Virus record (IMG/VR): IMGVR_UViG_3300010413_000009
Span: 1-17,628 of that record
DNA length: 17,628 nt
DNA from: a virus
Strand: one strand, 5' to 3'
Shown: positions 4,813 to 17,628 of the stretch, piece by piece
Position numbering within the stretch: position 1 is the stretch's first letter
How the letters are laid out: each line of letters begins with the position of its first letter
Translations under genes and position numbers: made by a program
The notes under the pieces: model-generated
The model's input: the letters and a program-made list of their open reading frames with translations, nothing else
Told to the model about the DNA's origin: nothing
The model's database searches: none

Positions 4813-4832
4813 GCTATCTCGTAGTGCTGGTA

Positions 4833-4861
4833 TTGACAGCGAACATACGAAGGGCTAGGAT
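4833..4861 (+). promoter_or_regulatory. Sigma70-like promoter TTGACA-N17-TAGGAT on the plus strand
   Basis: TTGACA at 4833..4838 and a 17-nt spacer, then TAGGAT at 4856..4861. The same -35/-10 pair and spacing recurs on the minus strand at 5441..5469. Confidence 0.4.
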
Positions 4862-4867
4862 CGTGGG

Positions 4868-4938
4868 AAGAATCGCCCCAACGACCATACCCTTTGGTCG
4901 CGAATTACCGGAGCCCTGCTGCTACAGGGCTCCTTTTT
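4868..4938 (+). ncRNA. Candidate ~70-nt plus-strand small RNA, antisense-oriented in the helicase / 156-aa-gene intergenic region
   Basis: Bounded by the promoter at 4833..4861 and the intrinsic terminator at 4910..4938. Contains an internal hairpin CGACC-N9-GGTCG (4882..4900). No coding capacity. The overlapping plus ORF 4824..5015 runs through the terminator, so it is unlikely to be a gene. Confidence 0.3.
4910..4938 (+). terminator. Rho-independent terminator, plus-strand oriented
   Basis: Stem GGAGCCCTG, loop CTGCTA, stem CAGGGCTCC (perfect 9-bp stem), followed by TTTTT. On the minus strand the same hairpin follows the TAA stop of gene 4937..5407 but has no U-tract. It therefore works as a terminator only for plus-strand transcripts. 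Confidence 0.6.
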
Positions 4939-5407
4939 ACGTCCTACATGCAGTCTTGTCTGCTTGCTGCCCCTGCGCCGGGGACACGTCTACTACTTCG
5001 AAAGTACCGTACTGATTATCCTTCCTGTAAGGACTGATACCGCGGTAACATCCGGCGATTCGCATAAGCTCTCTGAAGTCGTCAGCCGGTAATGAGGATG
5101 GTATAACTGCACGCACGACAATCGTATCTCCTGGGTAGAACGCTTCGTGCACAGTATACTGACTCGGCGCGTAGAAGCGCTTGTATTCGCGCGGCTCGCC
5201 ATCAATGACAGGATCCCAATCGATGTCTTTGACAGCAGCATGATGCCTATTGACGACTTTAGCCGCGTAACGCATCAATGCCTGCCACCAGGTAGGCAAG
5301 AACATTACGCGGCCGTCTGGCGCGTGGAGCATCCTGCTTATCCGCTTGTGCCTACAGTCTCCCAGTGAGTGCTGATTGAAACGAATCGTAACTGCCATTT
5401 CCCTCAT
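4937..5407 (-). CDS. Hypothetical protein (156 aa)
   Basis: ATG start with SD GGAAGG (6-nt spacer). It lies directly downstream of the TTGACA-N17-TAGGAT promoter. No recognisable motifs. Confidence 0.6.
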   Translation of the reverse strand: MREMAVTIRFNQHSLGDCRHKRISRMLHAPDGRVMFLPTWWQALMRYAAKVVNRHHAAVKDIDWDPVIDGEPREYKRFYAPSQYTVHEAFYPGDTIVVRAVIPSSLPADDFRELMRIAGCYRGISPYRKDNQYGTFEVVDVSPAQGQQADKTACRT

Positions 5408-15212: not shown

Positions 15213-15650
15213 TCATTTCTTCTTCTTTGTTTTTGGTCTGGGCTCCTTCTTGGATTTGGGGTTAGGTTCGGATCTGGTGATTATGATCTTCTCAGGCAGA
15301 TCATCGAGCCTGCCTTGTGCACGGTCTTTTTCCATCGCATGGGTCTTAATATCCTGCTCCAGTCCTCGGTGAATCGAGGTAGTGGCTTCATACACTTTAA
15401 CCGTCTCGGACAGCGCCATGAGTGCTTGAATCACTTGCTCTCCGCGGCTCAAAGCATCCGGGATGACGGATTTACCGTAACGCCCTGACACTGCGCTCGA
15501 ACGGAATTCAAGCATACAGCCAGGGAGTGTGAAGTGGATGACATACGACGCCGAATCGACCGATTGCGTGATGATCTCGGCATTGACGATGAGTTTTGTC
15601 GCCGTGCCTGGCGGGATTGCCTCAGGCAATACCGTTTTCCTAATAACCAT
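15213..15650 (-). CDS. Hypothetical protein (145 aa) with a Lys-rich C-terminal tail
   Basis: ATG with SD AAGGAG (7-nt spacer). Overlaps the upstream gene by 11 nt. The C-terminus is EPNPKSKKEPRPKTKKKK. Confidence 0.6.
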   Translation of the reverse strand: MVIRKTVLPEAIPPGTATKLIVNAEIITQSVDSASYVIHFTLPGCMLEFRSSAVSGRYGKSVIPDALSRGEQVIQALMALSETVKVYEATTSIHRGLEQDIKTHAMEKDRAQGRLDDLPEKIIITRSEPNPKSKKEPRPKTKKKK

Positions 15651-16071
15651 TCATGATCTCCTTGACTGCAAGCAGTTCGGAATCCGGTACTGGGATTGGG
15701 TTGAGCATGCCTCCGTAACGCATGCGCAGTGAGACCAACTCACCGTCACGTACCAGATTGCCACGGTACCTTATAATGCCGTATCCATCTGCGAGTTTAA
15801 TGCGCAGCGTGCGCAGTTCGGCAACCAGCTGTATGCAGTTTTCGGAATCAGCTGAGATGTAGAATCGTTTCGCGTCCAGCGTGCCCCACCAGCACTTTTC
15901 TGCCGTACGGTACTCGAGATCGCCGATACGGCCCGCGGCTTCGCGAAAGATGATCTTCTGTCGGTCTTCTTGTACCGCATTGATTCCGTACATCACCGCC
16001 GTGGTAATGAAGGCAACAAGCAACACCACGATGAGCCAGTTGTGGAAAGTTCGACCCGCAGTCGATGCCAT
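15640..16071 (-). CDS. Membrane-anchored protein (143 aa from ATG), with an N-terminal signal-anchor/TM helix
   Basis: The track ORF starts at a TTG at 16098. The first ATG (16071) has SD AAGGAG at a 7-nt spacer. Hydrophobic segment WLIVVLLVAFITTAVMYGI near the N-terminus. The remainder is predicted to be extracytoplasmic. Confidence 0.55.
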   Translation of the reverse strand: MASTAGRTFHNWLIVVLLVAFITTAVMYGINAVQEDRQKIIFREAAGRIGDLEYRTAEKCWWGTLDAKRFYISADSENCIQLVAELRTLRIKLADGYGIIRYRGNLVRDGELVSLRMRYGGMLNPIPVPDSELLAVKEIMNGY

Positions 16072-16282
16072 CCGAACACTCCTTGTTCTCGTGATCAAAG
16101 TCTGGAAAATGCCTATCCCGGCCTACCCAAAGTACCCAATTTCACAATATATCGGGCAAATCAGGCACGCGTGACAGAAGTCGTTACGGCCGCACGAGTT
16201 ATGACGAGAAATCGTCACTCCGGCATACCACCTCAGAGGGGAAACGTACGGCTAAATGTGCTGGGTCTTGCCTATTTTAACA

Positions 16283-16298
16283 TACGGGTTAACCCGTA
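16283..16298. promoter_or_regulatory. 16-bp perfect palindrome TACGGGTTAACCCGTA (candidate operator), within a promoter-like element on the minus strand
   Basis: Perfect dyad symmetry centred on GTTAAC. On the minus strand it sits in the 16-nt spacer between GTTACA (-35-like) and TATGTT (-10-like). The surrounding 16260..16420 is AT-rich relative to the rest of the window. Confidence 0.4.
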
Positions 16299-16381
16299 GT
16301 TGTAACTCGAGGCAGTACAAGAACTTAGCTGAGGTCAAAAATGATACCCCCCTTTTGGGATTCGGGAATTTGAAATAGTAT

Positions 16382-16445
16382 ATATTAGTCCTCATTTCAT
16401 TCGGACTAATATCGCCGCCGACCGGACGGACGAGATGTCCGTCCG
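16382..16445 (-). terminator. Tandem perfect hairpins at the operon boundary downstream of the 29-aa peptide gene
   Basis: Hairpin A is ATATTAGTCC-N11-GGACTAATAT (16382..16412; 10-bp stem). On the minus RNA it is followed by AUACUAUUUC. Hairpin B is CGGACGGAC-GAGAT-GTCCGTCCG (16423..16445; 9-bp stem). Orientation as a minus-strand terminator is inferred, and the U-tract is modest. Confidence 0.35.
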
Positions 16446-16646
16446 ATCAGGTGGCGTGATGCCCCTCTTTTTTACTATCCAGACGTTGAAGCCTTCTGCG
16501 TACCCAGCGACGGTATTCCGGACCGAGGCGTGGATACGTAAAGTCTCGACGCACCACTGGTGTTGCGCGCGTCTGTTCTGGCGAATTGCCCCGTTTGCAT
16601 TGTTGTTCGACTGCCCGCTGACGCGCAGCCTGTAGATCTGGATGTG

Positions 16647-16736
16647 TCAGAGCAGAATCGCCGCGAGTGCAATGATCAGAATAGCAACCAGTGTGAGCAC
16701 CTCGAAGATGCTCATCTTGCCGTGCTTCCGTGTCAT
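16647..16736 (-). CDS. Small hydrophobic membrane peptide (29 aa), unannotated in the ORF track because it is below the size cutoff
   Basis: Manual translation gives MTRKHGKMSIFEVLTLVAILIIALAAILL*. It has a cationic N-terminus followed by a single TM-length hydrophobic helix. Consensus SD AAGGAG lies 6 nt upstream of the ATG. It starts 11 nt after the TAG stop of the upstream 2-TM protein gene. Confidence 0.5.
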   Translation of the reverse strand: MTRKHGKMSIFEVLTLVAILIIALAAILL

Positions 16737-16749
16737 GATTGTCTCCTTG

Positions 16750-17307
16750 CTACGAGTACCTTTTGAGATAGCCGGCAGTGATCACGACGCCGAGTAACCC
16801 TGCGCCGAGAATCGAAAGCGCGAACGTAAACTGATTCGGGAAGAGAGAGATCCTCGGCGGTGCGGTAACCGACGGCGACTGCCCTTCGTCGATTAGGGTC
16901 TCCCGCAACTTCATCAGTTGATTCGAGATCTCCAACGGCTTCGCATCCGTTGGAAAATGTTCTAGCTCATCGTATGCGCTCTGGATATTGTCGTGCCAGA
17001 ACTTCACATCGCATTTTGGTGTGTAGATGAGCAGTTGCGACTGCCCACTAGTACAACCGCGAATTTTCATTCCGGCCAGCGCGTACTCGAGCTCCTGCTT
17101 TGCCAGCCCGATCGTGTTAGCATCGGCAGCGCGTTTCAAATGTCCGCCAATGTCGCGCTCGTAGCTGAGCCACGCCAGCCCGAGCATCGCCATGAGTACG
17201 CAGAACGGCAGCCAACCGATGGTTACCCAAATCCACGACAGCTCCGATTGGCGCCGTCGCCTTCGCGTTCCGTAATAATCCTGCATACGTTCACTCAATG
17301 TCTTCAT
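16750..17307 (-). CDS. Membrane protein with two predicted TM helices (185 aa from ATG)
   Basis: The track ORF begins at a GTG at 17325. The ATG at 17307 has SD GGAAGGAAGAG. This ATG overlaps the TGA stop of the upstream gene. Basic cytoplasmic N-terminus (GTRRRRRQ). TM1 WIWVTIGWLPFCVLMAMLGLAWL. A ~110-aa central domain. C-terminal TM FALSILGAGLLGVVITAGYL. Confidence 0.6.
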   Translation of the reverse strand: MKTLSERMQDYYGTRRRRRQSELSWIWVTIGWLPFCVLMAMLGLAWLSYERDIGGHLKRAADANTIGLAKQELEYALAGMKIRGCTSGQSQLLIYTPKCDVKFWHDNIQSAYDELEHFPTDAKPLEISNQLMKLRETLIDEGQSPSVTAPPRISLFPNQFTFALSILGAGLLGVVITAGYLKRYS

Positions 17308-17576
17308 CAAAACTCTTCCTTCCACGTAGCCCGCCAGACAATCCGTTCTATCAAGAGCTCGTCCGCTAGAAGCACGTCGTATGGACTGTGCGACTTATCT
17401 CTGAGTCCACGCGCACGACACCGCACGATTGCTTTGGTATCGCGATTCGTGAATCGAGCGAGATATGCGCGCGCCGTAGCGAACGACTTGAATACGTGCC
17501 ATCCAGACACGTACCATGTCTTCGCGTCGCGCACATGCTTATGTTCAGCCTCAAGCCACTGATTGCGCGGCAACAC
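17307..17576 (-). CDS. Hypothetical protein (89 aa; GTG start as given by the track)
   Basis: ORF whose stop is coupled (1-nt overlap) to the start of the downstream membrane protein gene. An alternative-frame ORF at 17366..17596 was rejected. No recognisable motifs. Confidence 0.4.
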   Translation of the reverse strand: MLPRNQWLEAEHKHVRDAKTWYVSGWHVFKSFATARAYLARFTNRDTKAIVRCRARGLRDKSHSPYDVLLADELLIERIVWRATWKEEF

Positions 17577-17628
17577 ACGCGTGCCGCCGTTGCCATGGAA
17601 CAGCGTCTTCAGTCGTCTACGCGCGTCG

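What the first reader, a model, noticed from the sequence alone, without database searches (positions are those of the whole stretch)
16099..16646. 550-bp AT-rich non-coding island with a 16-bp perfect palindrome and two perfect hairpins: an operon boundary, repressor-controlled promoter, or origin candidate
This is the only large non-coding stretch in the window, and it is visibly AT-richer than the flanks. It contains TACGGGTTAACCCGTA (16283..16298), a perfect 16-bp palindrome. On the minus strand the palindrome fills the spacer of a GTTACA-N16-TATGTT promoter-like element, which is an operator-in-spacer layout. The region also contains two perfect stem-loops: ATATTAGTCC-N11-GGACTAATAT and CGGACGGAC-GAGAT-GTCCGTCCG. 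It separates the membrane-protein block from the DNA-binding and HldE block. AT-rich intergenic DNA with dyads inside a replication module is also what an origin of replication looks like.
Basis: seen in the sequence. Interest (0 to 1): 0.6.

Follow-up and report, generated by a model that had tools for sequence, protein, structure and literature searches.

The report
Conserved three-hairpin spacer in large phages

Summary
Window 16072-16646 is a 575-bp non-coding spacer between two minus-strand gene blocks of an uncultivated large phage.

- **Hairpins:** both lie in a ~130-nt element (16315-16447, minus strand) conserved at the syntenic position in six deep lineages. Their flanking proteins are only 35-60% identical.
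- **AT-rich hairpin:** its stem covaries (8 of 10 pairs compensatory, 100% paired) around a conserved 11-nt loop, GAAYGNARTGA. G·U versus A·C counts (8:1) favour the gene strand.
- **Known families:** it matches no Rfam family.
- **Palindrome:** it is absent from all relatives, and such a palindrome is not rare by chance.
- **Promoter:** The clade's real sigma70 promoters are near-consensus and conserved elsewhere.
- **Origin:** there are no iterons, DnaA boxes or skew inflection.

Best reading: a cis-acting structured RNA at an operon junction, recognised by a trans-acting factor. Its exact role is unproven.

Side findings:
- a conserved antisense small-RNA gene candidate at 4833-4940;
- a clade-wide hairpin motif placed over ribosome-binding sites, one copy at 16083-16098.

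The parts
16647..16736 (-). 29-aa hydrophobic ORF (MTRKHGKMSIFEVLTLVAILIIALAAILL) with an AAGGAG ribosome-binding site. It is the upstream boundary of the spacer.
   Evidence: Called in the source contig; sequence and translation.
16475..16646 (-). GC-rich (58%) lineage-specific spacer ('domain A'). It is weakly structured and has no counterpart in relatives.
   Evidence: Fold z = -2.3. Absent in L005 and L012, where hairpin H1 follows the upstream gene closely. No gene-like ORF and no pseudogene remnant.
16315..16447 (-). Clade-conserved three-hairpin element: H1, H2, linker, H3 and box.
   Evidence: Covariance model R1 gives 108.9 bits here. It gives 99-117 bits in the other three training lineages. 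It also detects L055 (53.8 bits) and L058 (46.5 bits), which were not used to build it. There is one copy per locus.
16414..16457 (-). H1, a GC-rich hairpin. No U-tract follows it.
   Evidence: The structure is kept with different sequences in relatives: 83% of cells paired, 3 pairs with compensatory changes.
16382..16412 (-). The loop is conserved as GAAYGNARUGA. Its sequence allows tandem G.A pairs (not tested); the predicted inner A-U and Y-R pairs, which covary, close a GNA triloop.
   Evidence: All 10 pairs are paired in all 6 lineages and 8 show compensatory changes. A core-only model also finds it in AT-rich marine phages.
16362..16381 (-). Conserved single-stranded linker AUAUAC...UUUCAAAU.
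   Evidence: Alignments.
16346..16361 (-). H3, a short CCC-loop-GGGG hairpin followed by GGUAU. Only in this phage is it followed by U5.
   Evidence: 79% of cells paired, no compensatory change.
16318..16327 (-). Conserved box TAAGTTCTTG (consensus TAASTYCTT), followed after 12 nt by TTAC.
   Evidence: In this phage and in L005 the only exact copy is this one; 1-mismatch variants occur elsewhere in some loci (for example L012).
16296..16306 (-). GTTACAACTAC, shared with L005 (GTTACAAGTAC) and L058 (GTTACAAATAC).
   Evidence: alignment.
16283..16298 (-). Perfect 16-bp palindrome TACGGGTTAACCCGTA, specific to this lineage.
   Evidence: It falls in an alignment gap relative to L005 and L012.
16274..16282 (-). 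TGTTAAAAT, the only extended -10-like match inside the spacer on the gene strand.
   Evidence: Not conserved in relatives.
16083..16098 (-). Dyad TTGATC-ACGA-GAACAA directly 5' of the AAGGAG ribosome-binding site (16079-16084) and the ATG (16069-16071) of the 143-aa gene. It is one copy of the clade-wide motif TTGWTC-N4-GAWCAA.
   Evidence: 21 matches at <=1 mismatch in six loci (several inside genes) against 0.48 expected. Most sit just upstream of start codons. Orthologous copies lie before the homologous gene in L005 (6244) and L055 (5268).

Best explanation
Window 16072-16646 is the spacer between two co-directional gene blocks of a large uncultivated phage.

**What is there.** The functional core is not the palindrome. 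It is a ~130-nt element on the gene (minus) strand at 16315-16447, made of:
- H1, a GC-rich hairpin;
- H2, an AT-rich hairpin with a covarying stem and a conserved purine-rich 11-nt loop;
- a conserved single-stranded stretch, AUAKAC/UUUCAAA;
- H3, a short G/C hairpin;
- the box UAAGUYCUUG-N12-UUAC.

**Proposed mechanism.** I propose that it acts as RNA inside a transcript that runs through the spacer. H1 and H2 would form a stable structured module just after the conserved upstream genes. The invariant H2 loop would be the docking site for a trans-acting factor, phage or host protein. That factor would decide what happens to the transcript at this junction. It could cleave or stabilise it, or it could let RNA polymerase carry on into the variable genes and the long replication and repair operon, as a nut-like site does.

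**Other features.**
- The 16-bp palindrome is a recent, lineage-specific insertion just 3' of the conserved GTTACAA-TAC. At most it is a private hairpin or operator.
- Translation of the first downstream gene is preceded by a copy of a clade-wide hairpin motif next to the ribosome-binding site.

**Shown:**
- the spacer is non-coding;
- the element is conserved at the syntenic position and single-copy per locus;
- H2 covaries;
- pairing is biased to the gene strand;
- canonical promoter, terminator and origin signatures are absent.

**Inferred:** that it is RNA rather than single-stranded DNA, that a factor binds the loop, and which process it controls.
For: **A large gap is conserved at the same place.** It measures 575 bp here, 291 bp in L005, about 820 bp in L009, 359 bp in L012 and 760 bp in L013. 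Protein matches confirm the synteny.

**The element is recognisably homologous.** It scores 99-117 bits in the four training lineages. It is detected independently in L055 (53.8 bits, E about 1e-11) and L058 (46.5 bits). Flanking proteins are only 35-60% identical.

**The structure covaries.**
- 91% of cells are paired, against 72% in shuffles.
- The covariation score is 0.66 against 0.29, reached by 0 of 500 shuffles.
- Slid controls pair only 35-46%.
- H2 is 100% paired, with 8 of 10 pairs compensatory.

**Pairing favours the gene strand.** There are 8 G.U cells against 1 A.C. Folding is stronger on the minus strand, z = -4.9 against -3.2.

**The H2 core is older than the clade.** It recurs between genes, on the gene strand, in AT-rich marine phages.

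**It is unique, not a generic signal.**
- There is one copy per ~20-kb locus.
- It is not coding.
- It is not in Rfam.

**Read-through of terminators must occur in this phage.** A strong hairpin plus U-run sits immediately before the NDK ribosome-binding site with no room for a promoter (L001 7862-7889).
Against: - No transcript data exist, so neither read-through transcription nor RNA ends are shown.
- Six lineages is a small sample.
- The alignment used for pair counts was fitted to the model.
- H3 shows no compensatory change.
- G.T wobbles are also tolerated in single-stranded DNA, so a DNA-level role (priming signal, origin, hairpin recognised by a DNA-binding protein) fits the same covariation.
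- The element was not found in four more distant syntenic lineages (L013, L019, L023, L025).
- No candidate binding protein was identified.
- No intrinsic-terminator U-tract follows H1 or H2, so a plain 3'-end function is not evident either.
Confidence: 0.5

Rival explanations
1. One reading: a sigma70-type promoter (GTTACA-N16-TATGTT, minus strand) for the downstream block. The 16-bp palindrome in its spacer would be the operator of a dimeric repressor.
For: - The palindrome is perfect and fills the spacer exactly.
- An extended -10-like TGTTAAAAT overlaps it, the only such match inside the spacer on that strand.
- The downstream block needs some promoter unless it is read through from upstream.
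Against: - The match is only 8/12, and the spacer holds three such matches on the gene strand. The tool's scan at >=9/12 finds none.
- The palindrome and the -10 are missing in all relatives, including L005 and L055, which keep the same downstream gene.
- Five homologous spacers, this one included, have no sense-strand site of >=9/12.
- The clade's true sigma70 promoters are near-consensus and conserved.
- A perfect 16-bp palindrome occurs in 36% of random windows, and one lies inside a gene here.
- There is only one copy, even allowing 3 mismatches.
Confidence: 0.1
2. An origin of replication, or a single-strand priming or helicase-loading signal. The AT-rich hairpin region would melt and the strand-specific hairpins would be recognised on single-stranded DNA, as in the three-hairpin complementary-strand origin of phage G4 or plasmid ssi sites.
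For: - It is single-copy and conserved.
- It holds the AT-richest 60-nt windows in 26 kb.
- It has three hairpins within ~130 nt.
- It lies among replication and nucleotide-metabolism genes: ligase, NDK, SbcCD, helicases, DnaB-like, primase-like.
- Strand-biased pairing would also fit single-stranded DNA.
Against: - There are no direct repeats or iterons and no DnaA-box-like sites in the spacer.
- Cumulative GC skew rises steadily with no inflection across 26 kb.
- Genes on both sides run the same way.
- In the marine relatives the core hairpin sits in a ~100-nt intercistronic gap, about 20 nt before a ribosome-binding site. That looks like an mRNA feature.
Confidence: 0.13
3. An ordinary operon end: tandem terminator or mRNA-stabilising hairpins, plus chance dyads, with no specific function in the loop or palindrome.
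For: - Hairpin clusters are common in this phage's spacers, for example three tandem GC hairpins before NDK and hairpins at 14158-14182 and 4910-4933.
- H1 follows the upstream gene closely in L012 and L058.
Against: - A terminator needs no conserved 11-nt loop and no conserved flanking single-stranded motifs.
- H1 and H2 lack the U-run that the clade's clear terminators have.
- The element is unique per locus, whereas generic terminators recur.
Confidence: 0.15
4. A free-standing small-RNA gene (H1-H2-H3) with its own promoter and terminator.
For: - It is a strongly structured, conserved, non-coding element of 125-140 nt.
- H3 plus U5 looks terminator-like in this phage.
Against: - No promoter lies upstream of H1 in any lineage; in L012 and L058, H1 abuts the upstream stop codon.
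- The U-run after H3 is not conserved.
- The clade's convincing small-RNA candidate at 4833-4940 has both a consensus promoter and a canonical terminator.
Confidence: 0.1

Closest known systems
Lambda-type nut sites (boxA plus the boxB hairpin) and HK022 put RNAs: cis-acting antitermination RNAs. Comparison from general knowledge.
   Same: - A short hairpin whose loop is conserved while the stem covaries between related phages.
- Adjacent conserved single-stranded sequence.
- One copy per operon, lying ahead of a long operon that contains internal terminator-like hairpins.
   Different: - No sequence similarity.
- The conserved linear motif follows the hairpin rather than preceding it.
- The loop is 11 nt, with predicted internal pairs, not a GNRA-like pentaloop.
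- No promoter was found upstream.
- No N-like protein was identified, and the function is untested.
PeSL cassettes of T4-like phages: composite promoter-early plus stem-loop motifs (PMC4122927, PMC2839356).
   Same: A stem-loop-containing non-coding cassette at the border between conserved genes and variable ORFan genes. Here the genes just downstream differ between lineages.
   Different: - PeSLs are multi-copy and carry a sigma70-type -35/N17/-10.
- This element is single-copy per locus.
- It has no such promoter.
- It has a conserved loop, which PeSLs do not require.
Intercistronic RNase III or RNase E processing hairpins of T7 and T4 early mRNAs. Comparison from general knowledge.
   Same: Stable hairpins between cistrons of a polycistronic phage transcript, next to AU-rich single-stranded sequence.
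   Different: Those sites recur many times per genome and are defined by stem geometry rather than by a conserved apical loop. Cleavage here is untested.
Phage G4 complementary-strand origin and plasmid ssi signals. Comparison from general knowledge.
   Same: About 130-140 nt with three strand-specific hairpins in an intergenic region of a phage that encodes its own helicase and primase.
   Different: Those act in single-stranded DNA replicons. Here there is no evidence of origin activity, no skew change, and the core hairpin also occurs in tight intercistronic gaps.

Membership tests
Sigma70 promoter with operator in the spacer | -35 and -10 hexamers close to TTGACA/TATAAT at 16-18 bp spacing | tested here: not met
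   The match is 8/12 (GTTACA/TATGTT), below the scan threshold. The scan finds 0 sites in 15600-17628. The spacer holds three 8/12 matches on the gene strand.
Sigma70 promoter with operator in the spacer | Promoter and operator conserved in related genomes | tested here: not met
   The palindrome is absent from 138 other loci. Five homologous spacers, this one included, have no sense-strand site of >=9/12; L058 and L013 each have one 9/12 site at non-equivalent places. Conserved TTGACA-N17-TAGGAT sites exist elsewhere in the clade.
Intrinsic (rho-independent) terminator | GC-rich stem-loop immediately followed by a U-run | tested here: not met
   H1 is followed by GGUCGGCGGCG and H2 by AUAUACUAUUUC. 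Only the weak 5-bp H3 has U5, and that is not conserved.
Replication origin | Iterons or initiator boxes | tested here: not met
   Only short two-copy chance repeats are present. No DnaA-box-like site lies in the spacer.
Replication origin | AT-rich unwinding region | tested here: met
   16242-16430 holds the AT-richest 60-nt windows in 26 kb, with a minimum of 30% GC.
Replication origin | GC-skew turning point | tested here: not met
   Cumulative skew is monotonic over 26 kb. The whole genome was not available.
Replication origin | Supports replication | not testable with these tools
   This needs a plasmid or marker-frequency assay.
PeSL (promoter-early stem-loop) cassette | Many copies per genome, concentrated in variable regions | tested here: not met
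   There is one copy per ~20-kb locus. PeSL definition from PMC4122927.
PeSL (promoter-early stem-loop) cassette | Stem-loop adjoining variable ORFan genes | tested here: met
   Downstream genes differ between lineages. The 143-aa gene found no relatives beyond its own cluster in the 5.8-billion-protein search; direct comparison shows a weak match (35% identity) to the L005 141-aa gene.
Known RNA families (Rfam 15) | Match to any covariance model | tested here: not met
   There are no gathering-level hits in the window or in 7 related loci. Only chance-level hits appear at E<=10.
nut/put-like antitermination RNA | Hairpin with conserved loop and covarying stem, plus a conserved linear element | tested here: met
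   This is a resemblance only, not sequence homology.
nut/put-like antitermination RNA | Transcribed from an upstream promoter and makes RNA polymerase resist downstream terminators | not testable with these tools
   No transcript data are available. The need for terminator read-through is inferred from L001 7862-7889.
CsrA-type binding site (for the dyad at 16083-16098) | GGA in the loop of a short hairpin overlapping the ribosome-binding site | tested here: not met
   The loop of this copy is ACGA. Many other copies in the clade have AGGA in the loop. No CsrA gene lies in the 26 kb of this phage, whereas relatives have one.

The most novel reading that the evidence does not exclude
The H1-H2-H3 element could be a new class of phage cis-acting nucleic-acid signal, in one of two forms:
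- a processive antitermination or transcript-fate RNA, analogous to nut or put but unrelated in sequence, docking a still unknown conserved factor through the GAAYGNARUGA loop;
- a strand-specific single-stranded-DNA signal that loads the phage's own helicase-primase.

Its hairpin core would be old enough to be shared between ~55% GC phages and ~26% GC marine phages.
Probability: 0.25. Interest if true: 0.7.

Novelty: new member of a known kind. Interest (0 to 1): 0.45.

Why it matters
Large uncultivated phages are known almost only from their protein genes. Their regulatory RNA and DNA signals are essentially unmapped.

This spacer offers a concrete, testable non-coding element: a defined structure, a conserved loop, a fixed genomic position and a covariance model. 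It marks the junction between a conserved gene block and a fast-changing one. If the loop is a protein docking site, it gives a handle on how these phages control passage of transcription, or possibly replication, into their replication and repair operon.

The eye-catching perfect palindrome is the least conserved feature of the region.

Tried and rejected
**Known RNAs.** Rfam at gathering and at E<=10 on the window and on relatives found nothing. The tRNA/tmRNA scan found none.

**Hidden gene.**
- A codon-usage log-odds score for every ORF in the spacer gave a best of 0.099, at the edge of shadow-ORF noise. That best ORF, 47 aa, is broken by stops in L005 and L012.
- The in-frame 84-codon extension after the TGA of the 29-aa ORF scores 0.06. 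Domain A, which it largely spans, has no counterpart in L005 and L012.
- A tblastn of 28,333 ORF fragments from relatives against the spacer gave nothing beyond multiple-testing noise.

**Close relatives through the flanking genes.**
- The 143-aa, 298-aa, 185-aa and HldE single-protein scans of viral and metagenome contigs found nothing.
- blastn and tblastn against GenBank phages gave either no match or only distant HldE hits.
- L002 is a near-identical copy and therefore uninformative.
- The 185-aa protein has many homologues, but the two looked up lie in unrelated contexts.
- Success came only from the phage-type HldE clade and from the 136-aa protein alignment.

**Repeated promoter or operator motifs.** TAAGTYCTTG, GTTACAA and WATAKAC are not repeated in the available loci.

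**Pseudoknot or trans target of the H2 loop.** No conserved complementary site was found. A leader mini-ORF ending at the UAA of the box was checked by eye and is not consistently present.

**Wider distribution.**
- A specific IUPAC pattern returned only the already known lineages in viral contigs.
- It returned one coding-region chance hit in bacterial genomes, which the model rejects.

**PeSL membership** was rejected on copy number and promoter.
Full report
**1. What the window is**

All long ORFs lie on the minus strand. They encode the following:
- a DnaB-like helicase and a superfamily-2 helicase;
- an SbcC/SbcD-like pair;
- a bifunctional HldE-like kinase/adenylyltransferase;
- many proteins without family assignment.

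The same DNA occurs on a 39-kb Logan contig (L001, four SNPs, none in the spacer). It also occurs on a 101-kb JGI contig. L001 adds an NAD-dependent ligase, NT5C and NDK upstream. Nothing similar exists among GenBank phages at the DNA level. The SbcC-like protein has no tblastn hit there. This is an uncultivated, poorly sampled large phage.

**2. The observation**

The non-coding stretch runs 16072-16646 (575 bp). It lies between a 29-aa hydrophobic ORF (16647-16736) and the ATG at 16071 of a 143-aa ORF. That ORF carries an AAGGAG ribosome-binding site. It is the largest spacer in the window.
- No ORF inside it has gene-like codon usage.
- No tRNA or Rfam family matches.

Overall GC is 51.3% against 55.2% for the window. 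The AT-rich part is the central ~190 bp, which holds the AT-richest 60-nt windows in the 26 kb available.

Chance expectations differ for the two kinds of feature.
- **Palindrome:** a perfect 16-bp palindrome is expected 0.47 times per window, and a second one lies inside the SbcC-like gene. The palindrome alone is therefore unremarkable.
- **Hairpins:** perfect stems of >=9 bp are sevenfold over-represented and concentrated in spacers. The hairpin region folds far better than shuffles on the minus strand (z = -5.7). The leader downstream of the palindrome does not (z = -0.5).

**3. Finding relatives**

The immediately flanking 143-aa protein found no relatives in the large protein search. Single-protein scans failed.

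The HldE-like protein belongs to a distinct clade (37-62% identity) on contigs up to 226 kb. It is well separated from bacterial HldE, which is at most 34% identical.

Fetching those contigs showed conserved gene order on both sides of the spacer. Protein identities are 35-60%. Every syntenic relative has a large uncalled gap at the same place:
- 291 bp in L005;
- 359 bp in L012;
- 760 bp in L013;
- about 820 bp in L009, once a probably spurious 75-aa call is discounted.

**4. What is conserved**

Its parts, in order, are:
- **H1:** GC-rich, with a sequence that varies between lineages.
- **H2:** a stem that differs between lineages around an 11-nt loop, GAAYGNARTGA.
- **Linker:** ATAKAC and TTTCAAA.
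- **H3:** CCCC-loop-GGGG, followed by GGTAT.
- **Box:** TAAGTYCTTG, then TTAC 12 nt later.

A covariance model built from four lineages found two further lineages that were not used to build it. These are L055 at 53.8 bits and L058 at 46.5 bits. It found exactly one copy per locus.

Pair counts on six lineages:
- 91% of cells are paired, against 72% for shuffles.
- The covariation score is 0.66 against 0.29, reached by 0 of 500 shuffles.
- Slid controls pair only 35-46%.
- H2 is paired in every cell, and 8 of its 10 pairs show compensatory changes. These include two pairs inside the 'loop' (A-U to G-C and U-A to C-G).
- The predicted H2 tip therefore has an A-U pair and a Y-R pair closing a GNA triloop. 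The conserved GA...GA loop ends also allow tandem G.A pairs, which were not tested.

G.U cells outnumber A.C cells 8 to 1 on the gene strand, so the structure belongs to that strand.

A model of the H2 core alone also matches hairpins in AT-rich marine phages. There the hairpin is CCATAGTA-GTAATGAAATGAA-TACTATGG followed by GTATAC-TTTAAAC. It sits in short intercistronic gaps on the gene strand.

Other negative results:
- No frame is open across all lineages.
- No Rfam family matches any relative.
- A specific IUPAC pattern for the element finds only this clade in IMG/VR.
- The same pattern gives only a coding-region chance hit in GTDB genomes.

**5. What is not conserved**

- **Palindrome:** it falls in an alignment gap relative to L005 and L012. 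It is absent from all 138 other loci. It sits just 3' of GTTACAACTAC, which is shared with L005 and L058.
- **Upstream spacer:** the 172-bp GC-rich stretch between the 29-aa ORF and H1 has no counterpart in L005 or L012. It is not a gene remnant.

**6. Promoter, terminator, origin**

This clade does use canonical signals.
- A near-consensus TTGACA-N17-TAGGAT promoter lies before the 156-aa gene (window 5469-5441, minus strand).
- A second one lies on the opposite strand at 4833-4861.
- GC hairpins followed by U-runs serve as terminators.
- These signals are conserved across lineages.

By contrast, the spacer here and those of L005, L055, L012 and L009 contain no sense-strand site of >=9/12. 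H1 and H2 have no U-run.

For an origin there is only AT-richness. There are no iterons, no DnaA boxes and no skew inflection.

A strong terminator lies immediately before the NDK ribosome-binding site, with no room for a promoter (L001 7862-7889). Read-through of terminators must therefore happen in this phage. A transcript crossing the spacer is plausible.

**7. Interpretation**

The best-supported reading is a cis-acting structured RNA at an operon junction. Its conserved H2 loop would be recognised by a trans-acting factor. The particular process is inferred, not shown. It could be processing or stabilisation of the upstream message, or control of read-through into the variable genes and the replication and repair operon.

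The same covariation would fit a strand-specific single-stranded-DNA signal, so an origin or priming role keeps a modest probability.

The closest analogues are these.
- **nut/put antitermination RNAs:** they share the logic but not the sequence.
- **T4 PeSL cassettes:** they share the position next to variable genes, but PeSLs are multi-copy and carry sigma70 promoters.
- **Intercistronic RNase sites.**
- **G4-type three-hairpin origins.**

It is a member of none of these by the tests possible here.

**8. The downstream edge**

Directly before the ribosome-binding site of the 143-aa gene lies TTGATC-ACGA-GAACAA (16083-16098). The motif TTGWTC-N4-GAWCAA matches 21 times at <=1 mismatch in six loci, against 0.48 expected. 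Several matches lie inside genes, but most end 0-4 nt before a start codon. Many carry AGGA in the loop, as in UUGUUC-AGGA-GAACAA-AAUG.

Orthologous copies precede the homologous gene in L005 and L055.

Five relatives encode a CsrA homologue. This phage has none in the 26 kb available. A GGA-in-loop hairpin over the ribosome-binding site is the textbook CsrA target (general knowledge). The copy in this spacer lacks GGA in its loop.

**9. Verdict**

The real feature is a previously undescribed conserved structured element. It is a new member of a familiar kind, of moderate interest, and directly testable.

Noticed in passing
window 4833-4940, + strand (spacer 4813-4936); also L005:17440-17565, L007:9020-9130, L008:8925-9030, L009:18765-18862, L012:17385-17480 (strand opposite to the genes): A candidate small-RNA gene antisense to the gene direction. 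It has a TTGACA-N17-TAGGAT promoter, a ~75-nt transcript with a covarying hairpin and the conserved stretch GUCGCGAAUYAC, then a GGAGCCC-loop-GGGCUCC hairpin plus U5 terminator. Promoter, body and terminator are conserved in five other lineages (70% mean column identity). It is not in Rfam.
   Followed up: partly
window 16083-16098 (-); L001:7894; L005:4636, 6244, 12324, 19598; L009:6019, 7043, 12311, 20914; others: A clade-wide motif, TTGWTC-N4-GAWCAA, often seen as UUGUUC-AGGA-GAACAA-AAUG. That form is a 6-bp hairpin with the ribosome-binding site in its loop, just before the start codon. There are 21 matches at <=1 mismatch in six loci (some inside genes) against 0.48 expected. Relatives encode CsrA, so these may be CsrA-type translational control sites.
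   Followed up: partly
L005:11722-11898(-), L007:1876-2073(-), L008:2276-2458(-), L009:11713-11889(-), L012:11695-11877(-): Five related phages carry a small CsrA-family gene (PF02599) on the opposite strand just after the HldE-like gene. This phage has no CsrA homologue in its 26 kb.
   Followed up: partly
L001:7862-7930 (beyond the right end of the window): A strong intrinsic terminator (12-bp GC stem plus U5) abuts the ribosome-binding-site hairpin of the NDK gene. NDK appears to start at ATC (AGGAGAACAAAATCGCG...), whereas L005 has ATG at the same place. The L009 homologue of the 136-aa protein may likewise start at ATT.
   Followed up: no
window 7064-7079: A second perfect 16-bp palindrome, AAGTGATCGATCACTT, lies inside the SbcC-like gene. 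It shows that such palindromes occur here without being regulatory.
   Followed up: no
window 16750-17307 (-): The 185-aa two-pass membrane protein upstream of the spacer has 270 homologues at about 40-55% identity. Source names include Peregrinibacteria, Doudnabacteria, Nanoarchaeota and Saprospiraceae. One was seen in a phage-like contig (L003) and one in a cellular-looking contig (L004). No Pfam family matches.
   Followed up: partly
window 15640-16071 (-); L005:6274-6699: The first gene after the spacer is pilin-like. Its L005 homologue (35% identity) passes the Pfam N-terminal methylation motif (PF07963), and the protein here begins with a similar hydrophobic N-terminus.
   Followed up: partly
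window 16395-16646 (-): An 84-codon open frame continues in frame after the TGA stop of the 29-aa ORF, with a marginal coding score of 0.06. Domain A, which it largely spans, has no counterpart in L005 and L012, so stop-codon read-through or recoding is unlikely.
   Followed up: partly
L009:7151-7378 (+) and L009:6686-6913 (-): The equivalent spacer in lineage C hides an uncalled 75-aa CxxC...CxxC zinc-ribbon-like ORF. The called 75-aa minus-strand gene overlaps the conserved hairpin element and is probably spurious.
   Followed up: partly
L003:9748-11733: A ~2-kb stretch with no called gene lies in an unrelated 90-kb phage-like contig that carries a homologue of the 185-aa protein.
   Followed up: no
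L002 (SRR29850985 contig), 5' end = window 16324: An independent 994-bp assembly of the same phage starts inside the conserved TAAGTTCTTG box. If that run were a metatranscriptome, this could mark an RNA 5' end. The run type could not be checked.
   Followed up: no
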